This document shows positions 1,949 through 3,886 of a stretch of DNA of 8,262 nt, in pieces. Within the stretch, counting starts at the first letter, position 1. Each line of letters starts with the position of its first letter. The DNA comes from a virus (Duplodnaviria > Heunggongvirae > Uroviricota > Caudoviricetes), in the IMG/VR virus record IMGVR_UViG_2529292873_000013. One strand, 5' to 3'. The translations under genes were made by a program, and so were the position numbers. The notes below the pieces were generated by a model. It saw nothing but the letters and a program-made list of their open reading frames with translations. It did no database searches and had not been told where the DNA came from.

Positions 1949-3886
1949 TTACGGGTTATTCACTTCCACTGTTATACTTTCAATCAGCACCGGATATGTC
2001 GCACCGCTAGTGATATCGGTCACGCGCAATTTGTCTGCCGTAAACGTGCCGACCGGTGACTGTGACAGCATGAACGGCGTCCCGTCCTTACCATCAATGA
2101 CCGGCGTCACCTCAATACTGTTGTTACCGGCAAAACGGAAGCCCAGCGTATGCCATTCGTTATCAAATGCGCCGAATGACCCCAGCTTCGTGTTCTGACC
2201 AGCATTTCCCTTGTGGTACATCACATTAAGGTCTGTGGCATCGCTCTGTACGTAAAACGACGCCAGCAGGTTATGACCGGCATTACCTTCCAGTGTGACG
2301 CCCTGAGGCAGTGAAGAAACCGGCCAGTACAGCGCCAGTGCGTACTGATTAGCTGTCAGTGTGCCATCAACTTTAAAACGACAACTGATAAGCCCGCCCT
2401 TCTCCAGCAGGTCTGCGCCATTACCGGCATCATGCTGCATAAACCACGAGGAACTTCCTGTCTGTTTGGTCCACCTCAGCGCCTTACCTCCTGCAGCACC
2501 TGCATCATCAACTACCAATGCACGCCCTCCTTCAGCTCCCCATCCCTGCGGATTCAGTAAACCACCTGACTCTGTTGCACGGTAATAAAGCAGCGTTGTC
2601 ACTGATTTCCCGTCCGTTGACGGTGTTGATGGTGTGTCCGGTGACGGCTTCTCATCCGGCGGCATCACAACCTGTTCCCCACCCACCAGTTCAGCCGTCC
2701 GTCCTGCATGGAGAAGAATCGCTGAGGCAAGACGGTCAGAAATAATCCCCCTGCGTGCCCATGAGCTGAAATGGCTCGCACGGTCTGCTGACGTCCAGTT
2801 TGCCGACGTCCGGGAGGCCGCACCGTAATATCCTGATGCCGGAATATCCGGGTCTTCTTCCGGTTTGTTCGTCGGGACATTTGCTCCGTTCTCATCGGTC
2901 ATGAACGGCACAAAGTGAATATTCTTTTCCGTTTTGTTTTTGTAACTGCCGTACACCGTCTGGTAAGTGGATTCGCTCTTCTGCTTCCAGAAATAAGTTG
3001 TGTCTCCACATATCCAGGGAACACCGTCAGCAGAACCACCAGCGCACTGTCCCACCATATCTGCAAGGTCCGTACGATATTGTTCCACTACTTCTGTAAA
3101 ACGGGCTGTGTGATTTGCTGGCGTTCCGTCAAAGTCAAATTCCCCCTGCATCCACACCACGGCAAGCAGCACATTTTTCGGGTTCTTTGCCAGCGCGGCT
3201 TTTGTACGACCGATGAGATCCTTATACAGCGGCCTGCCCACACCCCAGCGGGTAGAACTCTCTGAGGCACCGGTCACGTCACTGTATGTTCCATCTGCCC
3301 CGGTGGTGAAAGCTGAACCACCACGGCAGCACGGAACCAGAAGAATACCCGCATTCGCCGGTATAAACGGCAGCAGCTTTTTGGCAATATGCAGCCCCTG
3401 CCCCACGGTTCCGTACTGACCTTTCGACAGGTCAGCTTTCGGATGGTTAAGACGGCTCATGTCCTGTACATCATGCAGACAGTGGTCTGCCGGAATAATG
3501 TCGTTATATTTACAGGGAGCGCCATCCGGCGTCACTGTGCTGCGACGAGCCAGTTGCTTTATACGCGGGTCAGGACGGTCATATGTCTGCGGCAGAGGAA
3601 GCCCCTCACCGTAAGCCATGCCGTTCGACTGCCCGGCCAGTGGAATAACGTAGTAATAATCTGGCTCCGTGGTGACCACTCCCGGATAGCCACCATCCCC
3701 CGTGCCGGGCACAACCACTGGCGTGGTCACATCCCCCTCCGCGGCAATCGCCTGCATCAGGGTATAAGGGGTTATGGCCACAGGACTACCAAACGGCTGC
3801 CAGCCCTCTTTCAGTTTGTGTGTCAGCTTTTCCGCAAGATCTGACGGCGACGCCGCCCTGACAACATCATAATGTTTAATCGACAT
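1949..3886 (-). CDS. nanS-p: NanS-p-type prophage sialate (9-O-acetyl-Neu5Ac) O-acetylesterase: N-terminal DUF1737-like domain plus SGNH/SASA esterase domain, 645 aa
   Basis: Uninterrupted 645-aa ORF. N-terminus MSIKHYDVVRAASPSDLAEKLTHKLKEGWQPFGSPVAI; esterase block YYYVIPLAGQSNGMAYGEG with the GQSN motif of SGNH hydrolases. Length and position (downstream of Q/pR', upstream of the lysis cassette) match the 645-aa ORF found after stx2 in Stx phages. GGGAG ribosome-binding site upstream of the ATG. Confidence 0.85.
   Translation of the reverse strand: MSIKHYDVVRAASPSDLAEKLTHKLKEGWQPFGSPVAITPYTLMQAIAAEGDVTTPVVVPGTGDGGYPGVVTTEPDYYYVIPLAGQSNGMAYGEGLPLPQTYDRPDPRIKQLARRSTVTPDGAPCKYNDIIPADHCLHDVQDMSRLNHPKADLSKGQYGTVGQGLHIAKKLLPFIPANAGILLVPCCRGGSAFTTGADGTYSDVTGASESSTRWGVGRPLYKDLIGRTKAALAKNPKNVLLAVVWMQGEFDFDGTPANHTARFTEVVEQYRTDLADMVGQCAGGSADGVPWICGDTTYFWKQKSESTYQTVYGSYKNKTEKNIHFVPFMTDENGANVPTNKPEEDPDIPASGYYGAASRTSANWTSADRASHFSSWARRGIISDRLASAILLHAGRTAELVGGEQVVMPPDEKPSPDTPSTPSTDGKSVTTLLYYRATESGGLLNPQGWGAEGGRALVVDDAGAAGGKALRWTKQTGSSSWFMQHDAGNGADLLEKGGLISCRFKVDGTLTANQYALALYWPVSSLPQGVTLEGNAGHNLLASFYVQSDATDLNVMYHKGNAGQNTKLGSFGAFDNEWHTLGFRFAGNNSIEVTPVIDGKDGTPFMLSQSPVGTFTADKLRVTDITSGATYPVLIESITVEVNNP

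What the first reader, a model, noticed from the sequence alone, without database searches (positions are those of the whole stretch)
1949..3886. Intact NanS-p-type sialate O-acetylesterase in a prophage with no stx
The 645-aa esterase gene is the only large cargo gene that is fully intact, while the neighbouring lysis gene appears decayed. That would fit selection on the host for the esterase, which in Stx phages lets the bacterium use O-acetylated sialic acids.
Basis: partly seen in the sequence, partly recalled or inferred. Interest (0 to 1): 0.4.

Follow-up and report, generated by a model that had tools for sequence, protein, structure and literature searches.

The report
Known prophage sialate esterase gene nanS-p
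The gene is a real, intact copy of a well-studied prophage sialic-acid O-acetylesterase (NanS-p), identical to one in E. coli O157:H7 EDL933, and the "decayed" neighbouring genes are most likely errors in a draft genome contig, so nothing here is unusual.

Summary
The ORF at 1949-3886 (minus strand, 645 aa) is real. It is a full NanS-p with all three domains: DUF1737, the SASA/SGNH esterase domain and the DUF6645 lectin-like C-terminal domain. All four SGNH blocks are kept, including Ser87 and His372. It is 645/645 identical to the NanS-p of a non-Stx prophage of O157:H7 EDL933.

There is no stx and no tRNA between Q and the holin gene, so the "no stx" statement holds for this late region.

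The evolutionary reading does not hold. The window is an entire 8,262-bp draft contig (AETZ01000006.1, sorbitol-fermenting O157:H- strain H2687).
- The lysozyme, rusA and DUF968 genes are each broken only by single missing bases.
- Restoring those eight bases gives full-length genes whose differences from intact homologues are mostly synonymous.
- The equivalent contig of strain 493-89 (same clonal complex) has none of the six rusA/DUF968 deletions, but has private indels of its own.
- Q, the holin gene, ydfR and the small ORFs are intact.
- nanS-p lies in a 3,067-bp block with zero differences from EDL933, non-coding DNA included, so its intactness says nothing about selection.

NanS-p genes in non-Stx prophages, and their activity, are already published. 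Verdict: already known, low interest.

The parts
1949..3886 (-). nanS-p coding sequence, 645 aa, intact. 645/645 identical to EDL933 WP_000023170.1.
3737..3877 (-). N-terminal DUF1737 domain (aa 4-50). In phage phi24B this domain is the capsid-binding part of the homologous protein gp84.
   Evidence: Pfam E 3.3e-15; preprint 10.64898/2026.04.10.717836
2714..3670 (-). SASA/SGNH esterase domain (aa 73-391), 58% identical to chromosomal NanS. Block I GQSNG (aa 85-89), block II RGGSAF (188-193), block III MQGEFD (246-251), block V RASHFS (369-374).
3626..3628 (-). Codon of Ser87, equivalent to the nucleophile Ser19 of NanS (3PT5).
2771..2773 (-). Codon of His372, equivalent to the catalytic base His301 of NanS (3PT5).
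1955..2602 (-). C-terminal lectin-like jelly-roll domain (aa 429-644; Pfam DUF6645). About 70% identical to the 933W NanS-p over this domain and matched to the solved NanS-p C-terminal domain 6YP6.
3981..3999 (-). Strong intrinsic-terminator-like hairpin (8 pairs, 7 of them G-C, then T8), 95 nt upstream of the nanS-p start codon and at the 3' end of the STnc100-like RNA.
4027..4193 (-). STnc100 (PasD-related) prophage sRNA gene between DUF3927 and nanS-p.
   Evidence: 116... see 101.6 bits against a gathering score of 47, E 7e-22
4201..4368 (-). Small DUF3927 membrane-protein ORF, intact.
4365..4727 (-). TerB-family pseudogene with an in-frame TAG, shared with closed genomes. It is the only genuinely decayed gene in the window.
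4867..4931 (-). Two terminator-like hairpins just downstream of Q, in the tR' position. A candidate late promoter (TTGATT, 16 nt, TAAATT) lies at about 4923-4950.
   Evidence: The promoter was read by eye and is an inference.
4965..5786 (-). Late antiterminator Q (273 aa), intact. Identical to the O26 11368 copy and one residue different from EDL933.
1619..1801 (-). DUF1378 small ORF, intact.
1312..1581 (-). DUF826 ORF, intact.
1021..1236 (-). P21-type holin S (71 aa), intact.
672..1016 (-). YdfR/DUF1327 ORF, intact and identical to EDL933.
90..621 (-). Endolysin R, apparently frameshifted by single missing bases after 140 and 450. The repaired protein is 177 aa and 175/177 identical to intact lysozymes. 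Most likely a draft-sequence artefact.
5783..6155 (-). rusA, apparently frameshifted by missing bases after 5860 and 6151. The repaired protein is an exact match to EFX11515.1 of strain 493-89.
6168..7213 (-). DUF968 gene, apparently frameshifted by missing bases after 6466, 7131, 7139 and 7166. All four bases are present in the 493-89 contig.

Best explanation
The feature is an ordinary, intact nanS-p gene. It encodes a three-domain sialate O-acetylesterase: an N-terminal DUF1737 domain, an SGNH/SASA esterase domain and a C-terminal lectin-like carbohydrate-binding domain. It sits in the late operon (Q - terminators - TerB remnant - DUF3927 - STnc100 sRNA - nanS-p - DUF1378 - DUF826 - S - ydfR - R) of a lambdoid, non-Stx prophage of the stx2-positive sorbitol-fermenting E. 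coli O157:H- strain H2687.

Shown here: the domain architecture, the catalytic motifs, identity to an EDL933 allele, the position downstream of Q and three terminator-like hairpins, and the absence of stx.

From the literature: NanS-p enzymes remove O-acetyl groups from Neu5,9Ac2 and mucin sialic acids, which lets the lysogen grow on them. Expression rises on prophage induction.

Inferred: the gene is transcribed from the late promoter by Q-modified polymerase. Because the protein has no signal peptide, it reaches its substrate when induced cells lyse, or on the virion.

The broken lysozyme, rusA and DUF968 genes around it are most likely single-base errors of a draft contig that covers a multi-copy prophage repeat. 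They are not biological decay, so the locus gives no evidence of differential selection on the esterase.
For: Identity of the gene:
- Pfam domains.
- PDB matches 3PT5 (E 2.5e-119) and 6YP6 (E 9.5e-97).
- Blocks GQSNG, RGGSAF, MQGEFD and RASHFS equal the NanS blocks listed in PMC10792757.
- 645/645 identity to EDL933 WP_000023170.1, which lies in a prophage beside potC that carries no stx.
- 74.5% identity to 933W L0105.
- dN/dS is about 0.10 for the esterase domain against 933W.

Activity and biology:
- PMC8065619 states that the NanS-p alleles of EDL933 prophages all gave active esterases and support growth on Neu5,9Ac2.
- PMC10462455 states that the gene also occurs in non-Stx prophages and is induced by mitomycin C.

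Artefact reading of the neighbours:
- The window is the whole contig AETZ01000006.1 of GCA_000187325.3, which is strain H2687.
- All 11 single-base indels relative to EDL933 are deletions, and none lies between 451 and 5859.
- Repair restores the exact homologue lengths of 534, 375 and 1050 nt, with mostly synonymous divergence.
- The 493-89 contig has the base at all six rusA/DUF968 sites, and has different private indels of its own.
- The repaired RusA is an exact match to a 493-89 protein.
- The deletion at 450 recurs in an unrelated draft contig, on a different lysozyme allele, inside a CCCGGG run.
- Three of the deletions fall on sites where intact reference alleles differ from each other.
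Against: - No read data or closed genome of H2687 was available, so the frameshifts were not directly shown to be errors.
- The 493-89 contig stops before the lysozyme gene, so the lysozyme lesions are judged by analogy, by the repaired-ORF test and by the recurrence in AIFM01000036.
- The repaired lysozyme and the repaired DUF968 protein are not present as exact sequences in the protein collection.
- 493-89 and H2687 belong to different sequence types within clonal complex A4, so strain-specific mutations are not impossible.
- Esterase activity of exactly this allele is taken from a review statement.
Confidence: 0.85

Rival explanations
1. The prophage is genuinely decaying, with lysozyme, rusA and DUF968 inactivated by real frameshifts, while nanS-p is kept intact by host-level selection for use of O-acetylated sialic acid. 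On this view the esterase is a domesticated cargo gene.
For: - The frameshifts are in the deposited sequence.
- One of them, at 450, is also seen in another draft assembly.
- The TerB-like gene next door is a real pseudogene in closed genomes.
- The corresponding EDL933 prophage has a frameshifted portal gene, so prophages of this type are not all fully functional.
- NanS-p confers growth on Neu5,9Ac2.
Against: - Eight independent one-base deletions in three genes, with no nonsense mutation, insertion or larger lesion, together with strongly synonymous divergence, is not what relaxed selection produces.
- The six rusA/DUF968 deletions are absent from strain 493-89, which has other private indels instead.
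- nanS-p is embedded in 3,067 bp of perfect identity to EDL933 that includes non-coding DNA. Its intactness therefore needs no selection.
- Q, S and ydfR are also intact.
- A cytoplasmic esterase without a signal peptide needs lysis to reach its substrate (inference).
Confidence: 0.06
2. nanS-p is not cargo at all but a phage structural or accessory gene. The DUF1737 domain would attach the protein to the capsid, as shown for gp84 of the Stx podovirus phi24B. The esterase and lectin domains would then act for the phage, for example by binding or deacetylating mucus or O-antigen. On this view the gene is conserved by selection on the phage.
For: - Preprint 10.64898/2026.04.10.717836 reports the homologous gp84 as a capsid-decorating protein bound through DUF1737.
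- The window protein has a significant DUF1737 domain.
- The gene sits in the late operon and is found in up to 15 places per genome, mostly without stx.
- All three domains show dN/dS well below 1.
Against: - The DUF1737 domain here is only 56% identical to that of 933W/phi24B, and its loop is three residues shorter.
- The corresponding EDL933 prophage is a lambda-like siphovirus with different head genes from phi24B, so capsid binding is untested for this type.
- Host benefit has experimental support. The two roles do not exclude each other.
Confidence: 0.3

Closest known systems
NanS-p of E. coli O157:H7 EDL933 non-Stx prophage beside potC (RefSeq WP_000023170.1, locus P7249_RS15895 in NZ_CP120944.1)
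   Same: Protein identical, 645/645. DNA identical over window 1094-4160. Same gene order from hokD to the lysozyme gene.
   Different: The flanking lysozyme, rusA and DUF968 genes are intact in EDL933. They differ from the window by 2-10% substitutions and by the single-base deletions of the window.
NanS-p of Stx2a phage 933W (L0105/z1466) and gp84/vb_24B_21 of phage phi24B
   Same: Same length (645 aa), the same three-domain architecture, the same SGNH blocks and the same position between Q and S. The esterase domain is 86.7% identical.
   Different: - Overall identity is only 74.5%: DUF1737 56%, C-terminal domain about 70%.
- In 933W the tRNA genes and stx2AB lie between Q and nanS-p. Here that interval holds a TerB pseudogene, DUF3927 and an STnc100-like sRNA.
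- The Q protein is of a different type (273 aa against 157 aa).
Chromosomal NanS (YjhS), PDB 3PT5
   Same: The SGNH/SASA esterase fold region is 58% identical. The catalytic Ser and His and the (H)QGE block are conserved.
   Different: NanS is a single-domain protein of the nanCMS operon. It lacks the DUF1737 and lectin-like domains. NanS-p has no N-terminal signal-like sequence (read directly from the sequence).
616-aa NanS-p alleles of O26:H11 11368 and O145:H28 RM12761 non-Stx prophages
   Same: Same position and the same N-terminal domain type (94% and 89% identity).
   Different: Different C-terminal domain (35% identity) and a more divergent esterase domain (74%).

Membership tests
NanS-p (prophage-borne sialate O-acetylesterase) | Central SASA/SGNH esterase domain homologous to chromosomal NanS | tested here: met
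   Pfam PF03629, E 4.9e-11. phmmer against 3PT5 gives E 2.5e-119 over aa 73-391, 58% identity.
NanS-p (prophage-borne sialate O-acetylesterase) | Catalytic Ser (block I, GQSN) and His (block V, R-x-S-H), plus block II RGGS and block III QGE as in NanS | tested here: met
   GQSNG 85-89 (Ser87), RGGSAF 188-193, MQGEFD 246-251 and RASHFS 369-374 (His372). The same blocks are listed for 3PT5 in PMC10792757, and RASH/RSSH is listed for NanS-p in PMC10462455.
NanS-p (prophage-borne sialate O-acetylesterase) | N-terminal DUF1737 domain in place of a signal peptide | tested here: met
   PF08410, E 3.3e-15, aa 4-50. The first 35 residues are polar, with no hydrophobic core.
NanS-p (prophage-borne sialate O-acetylesterase) | C-terminal lectin-like jelly-roll domain (crystallised from vb_24B_21) | tested here: met
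   PF20350 DUF6645, E 7e-71. 6YP6 matches at E 9.5e-97 over aa 429-644.
NanS-p (prophage-borne sialate O-acetylesterase) | Location in the late region of a lambdoid prophage, between antiterminator Q and holin S | tested here: met
   Q at 4965-5786, nanS-p at 1949-3886 and S at 1021-1236, all on the minus strand. Same order as in EDL933, O26 and 933W.
NanS-p (prophage-borne sialate O-acetylesterase) | Esterase activity on Neu5,9Ac2 and O-acetylated mucin sialic acids | not testable with these tools
   Inferred only. The protein is identical to an EDL933 allele, and review PMC8065619 says all EDL933 NanS-p alleles gave active enzymes.
Stx-converting phage late region | stxAB operon (usually with tRNA genes) between Q and nanS-p | tested here: not met
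   No tRNA genes. tblastn with Stx2A/B gives nothing better than E=1. The interval holds a TerB pseudogene, DUF3927 and STnc100.
Decaying (cryptic) prophage with a selectively retained cargo gene | Neighbouring phage genes carry genuine, heritable inactivating mutations and show relaxed constraint | tested here: not met
   - The lesions are only single-base deletions.
- The repaired genes are full length with mostly synonymous divergence.
- Six of the eight lesions are absent from the strain 493-89 contig, which has different private indels.
- The source is a draft contig.
- Only the TerB remnant is a shared, real pseudogene.

The most novel reading that the evidence does not exclude
In lambda-like siphovirus prophages of EHEC such as this one, NanS-p may be a virion protein. 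It would be anchored to the capsid by DUF1737, as reported for gp84 of the podovirus phi24B. The many non-Stx nanS-p copies in EHEC genomes would then be phage structural or accessory genes that carry a mucus- or glycan-modifying enzyme on the particle, rather than host-selected metabolic cargo.
Probability: 0.25. Interest if true: 0.35.

Novelty: already known. Interest (0 to 1): 0.08.

Why it matters
It matters little as a discovery. The allele is identical to a catalogued EDL933 gene. The exact protein is seen on at least 1,000 contigs. In complete E. coli genomes, 306 records hold the gene at 99% identity or more. NanS-p genes in non-Stx prophages and their role in growth on O-acetylated sialic acid are published.

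The useful lesson is methodological. The window is a short draft contig of a multi-copy prophage repeat. Apparent pseudogenes made only of single-base deletions should not be read as prophage decay or used to infer selection. Had the decay been real, it would have been a modest example of prophage gene domestication.

Tried and rejected
1. An exact 61-mer from the divergent DUF968 segment was searched in genome contigs to find the source. It gave no match. The source was then found through the 66-aa lysozyme fragment with the look-up of encoding contigs.
2. I looked for a closed genome that carries the window's flanking alleles. The best matches were only 96.7-98.1% identical. No closed SF O157:H- reference was available to settle the frameshifts directly.
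3. An exact look-up of the repaired lysozyme and the repaired DUF968 protein found neither in the collection. Only the repaired RusA matched.
4. I tried to read the primary papers (Saile 2016 PMC5038053, Feuerbaum 2018 PMC7106450, Rangel 2016 PMC5038012, Rangarajan 2011 PMC3149194). None is held. I relied on reviews and later papers instead.
5. The identity of the second draft (AIFM01000036) could not be established from the paper library.
6. I considered that uniform random sequencing error explains the indels. This was rejected as a complete explanation. The 11 deletions avoid the central 5.4 kb and cluster in the segments where prophage paralogues diverge. That fits a mixed or low-coverage consensus in a repeat better than uniform error.
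7. I considered that stx was recently deleted from this locus. There is no stx remnant. Only the sRNA-bearing stretch downstream of stxB is homologous to 933W, at 72%. This was not pursued further, because the stx-less arrangement is the common one.
8. Structure prediction was not run. Solved structures already cover the esterase and C-terminal domains at high identity.
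Full report
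**What is in the window.** All recognisable genes lie on the minus strand and form the early-right to late region of a lambdoid prophage. In order they are:
- sok RNA and hokD (7660-7984)
- a small hypothetical ORF
- a DUF968 gene (6168-7213)
- rusA (5783-6155)
- antiterminator Q (4965-5786)
- two terminator-like hairpins (4867-4931)
- a TerB-family pseudogene (4365-4727)
- DUF3927 (4201-4368)
- an STnc100-type sRNA (4027-4193) with a strong terminator (3981-3999)
- the 645-codon ORF of the finding (1949-3886)
- DUF1378, DUF826, holin S (1021-1236), ydfR/DUF1327 and the endolysin gene (90-621)

**The observation.**
- It carries DUF1737 (aa 4-50), SASA (aa 83-275) and DUF6645 (aa 494-611).
- By sequence it matches the solved NanS/YjhS esterase 3PT5 (E 2.5e-119, aa 73-391) and the solved C-terminal domain of NanS-p, 6YP6 (E 9.5e-97, aa 429-644).
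- The four SGNH blocks of NanS listed in PMC10792757 are GQSNA, RGGSAF, MQGEFD and R-x-SHFS. All are present here: GQSNG with Ser87, RGGSAF, MQGEFD, and RASHFS with His372.
- Site-directed mutagenesis of the Ser and His in NanS is reported in PMC10017367.

**No stx.** The interval from Q to S is where all Stx phages carry stx; in 933W the order is Q, tRNA genes, stx2AB, L0105 (nanS-p), S. In the window this interval is complete and has no tRNA gene and no Stx-like coding potential.

**Where the window comes from.** The 66-aa N-terminal lysozyme fragment is encoded on only two contigs in the public collection. One of them is an 8,262-bp contig identical to the window over its full length: AETZ01000006.1 of GCA_000187325.3. 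AETZ00000000 is the draft genome of the sorbitol-fermenting O157:H- strain H2687, clonal complex A4 (PMC3271280). That strain is a Scottish 2003 isolate, and its group carries stx2 (PMC3375798). The window is therefore a whole, short draft contig of a repeated prophage region, in a genome that has a Stx2 phage elsewhere.

**Closest relatives.**
- The best full-length matches among 5,426 complete E. coli genomes are O157:H7 prophages at 97.8-98.1%. In EDL933 the matching prophage lies beside potC and has no stx.
- The differences from EDL933 are very unevenly spread. There are none over 1094-4160 (3,067 bp), only a handful between 562 and 5800, and dense clusters at 1-500, 5828-6186, 6466-7166 and beyond 7650.
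- The NanS-p protein is 645/645 identical to EDL933 WP_000023170.1. The same gene is at 99% identity or more in 306 complete-genome records, and nanS-p-like sequence occurs in up to 15 places per genome.
- Against the 933W enzyme it is 74.5% identical: esterase domain 86.7%, DUF1737 56%, C-terminal domain about 70%.
- Pairwise dN/dS is about 0.10 for the esterase domain. The family is under long-term purifying selection, but this does not say whether phage or host benefits.

**The 'decayed' neighbours.** Relative to intact homologues, the window has eleven single-base indels. All are deletions, and all lie outside 451-5859. There is also a 7-bp deletion downstream of the lysozyme stop codon. 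Eight of the deletions fall in coding sequence: two in the lysozyme gene, two in rusA and four in DUF968. Five lines of evidence argue that they are not biological.
1. Restoring the eight bases gives genes of exactly the homologue lengths (534, 375 and 1050 nt) with no other lesion.
2. The substitutions in these genes are overwhelmingly synonymous. Lysozyme has 24 synonymous and 2 non-synonymous codons against EDL933. DUF968 has 54 and 19 against EDL933, and 21 and 4 against O26. Window-unique codons split 13 to 3. These are functional alleles, not relaxed ones.
3. The repaired RusA is an exact match to EFX11515.1 of O157:H- strain 493-89. The corresponding 493-89 contig AETY01000201.1 has the base at all six rusA/DUF968 deletion sites. 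It carries its own private indels at other places, equivalent to window 7861, 7275, 6686 and 1049, and about 30 clustered substitution differences from the window within about 1 kb.
4. The deletion after 450 recurs in an unrelated draft contig (AIFM01000036), on a different, EDL933-like lysozyme allele, inside a CCCGGG run. That contig has further private insertions in ydfR.
5. Three of the deletions (140, 7139, 7166) fall on sites where intact reference alleles differ from each other. That is what a consensus caller produces when reads from diverged paralogues are mixed.

The simplest reading is a draft-assembly artefact in a multi-copy prophage repeat. This was not proved from reads, and the 493-89 contig ends before the lysozyme gene.

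**What this does to the interpretation.** With the artefacts discounted, nanS-p is not exceptional.
- Q, S, ydfR and the small ORFs are intact as they stand, and R, rusA and DUF968 are intact after repair.
- The only gene that is genuinely broken in closed genomes as well is the TerB-like remnant, with an in-frame TAG.
- nanS-p lies in a block with no substitutions at all relative to EDL933, non-coding DNA included. Its integrity therefore carries no information about selection.
- The two SF O157:H- drafts agree perfectly over window 1094-4836, which supports the accuracy of the nanS-p sequence itself.
- Mechanistically, NanS-p lacks a signal peptide, while its substrate cannot be imported as such (PMC10017367). 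Release by lysis, or display on the virion, is therefore needed. A dead lysis cassette would not favour host benefit (inference).

**How it most likely works.**
- Shown: the architecture, the motifs and the position downstream of Q and three terminator-like hairpins.
- From the literature: NanS-p enzymes of EDL933 prophages are active on Neu5,9Ac2 and on mucin O-acetyl sialic acids and support growth (PMC8065619). nanS-p expression rises 1-2.4 logs on mitomycin C induction (PMC10462455). The C-terminal domain is a lectin-like jelly-roll, a putative carbohydrate-binding module.
- Inferred: transcription comes from the late promoter through Q antitermination, and the protein is released from the induced subpopulation.
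- A 2026 preprint reports that the phi24B homologue gp84 decorates the capsid through DUF1737. The gene may therefore serve the phage as well as, or instead of, the host. This is kept as a non-exclusive rival.

**Comparison with what is known, and novelty.** The gene passes every sequence-testable membership criterion for NanS-p. It is not part of a Stx-converting late region.
- NanS-p in non-Stx prophages is explicitly described in PMC10462455 and PMC8065619.
- A 2026 preprint finds the arrangement of PasD/STnc100 sRNA, esterase, holin and lysozyme to be common. It reports that fewer than 3% of chromosomal PasA genes, which flank this esterase-holin-lysozyme unit, are adjacent to stx.

The finding is therefore already known, and its evolutionary twist rests on sequence errors. 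Interest is low.

Noticed in passing
window 4027-4193 (-), terminator 3981-3999 (-): There is a full-length Rfam STnc100 sRNA match (101.6 bits, E 7e-22) directly upstream of nanS-p, ending in a strong terminator. Phage 933W has a 72% homologous stretch just downstream of stxB. A 2026 preprint relates STnc100 to the PasD sRNAs and describes the sRNA-esterase-holin-lysozyme arrangement.
   Followed up: partly
window 7660-7984 (-): A hokD toxin ORF (51 aa) sits next to a full-length sok antitoxin RNA match (RF01794, 116 bits). This is an apparently complete type I toxin-antitoxin pair at the early-right end of the contig.
   Followed up: no
window 4365-4727 (-): A TerB-family gene has an in-frame TAG at codon 23. 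Closed genomes (EDL933, CV261, O26:H11 11368) share it, and there it is annotated 'internal stop'. It is the only genuinely decayed gene in the window.
   Followed up: partly
window 140, 450, 5860, 6151, 6466, 7131, 7139, 7166, 7653, 8022, 8048; 7-bp gap after 61: All single-base indels relative to closed genomes are deletions in the window, and they cluster where prophage paralogues diverge. Three fall on sites that are polymorphic between intact alleles. This pattern suggests a mixed-read consensus in a draft assembly. The 493-89 draft has a different private set.
   Followed up: yes
L008 (AETY01000201.1) against window 6740-7143: Two strains of the same clonal complex differ by about 30 clustered substitutions within about 1 kb of the DUF968 gene. 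Yet they are identical over the 3.7 kb that includes nanS-p. Either the drafts assembled different paralogues or chimeras, or there has been recombination between resident prophages.
   Followed up: partly
L001 1859-4443 (EDL933 prophage beside potC): The closest closed-genome relative of this prophage has a frameshifted portal gene, according to the RefSeq annotation. Prophages of this type can therefore be genuinely defective outside the window.
   Followed up: no
window 3737-3877 (-), NanS-p aa 38-45: The DUF1737 loop that carries the capsid-anchoring Tyr42 in phi24B gp84 is three residues shorter here (ITP-YTLMQ) but still contains a Tyr. The SISSP motif, which the phi24B preprint proposes as a proteolytic cleavage site in gp84, is replaced by VTTP.
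   Followed up: no
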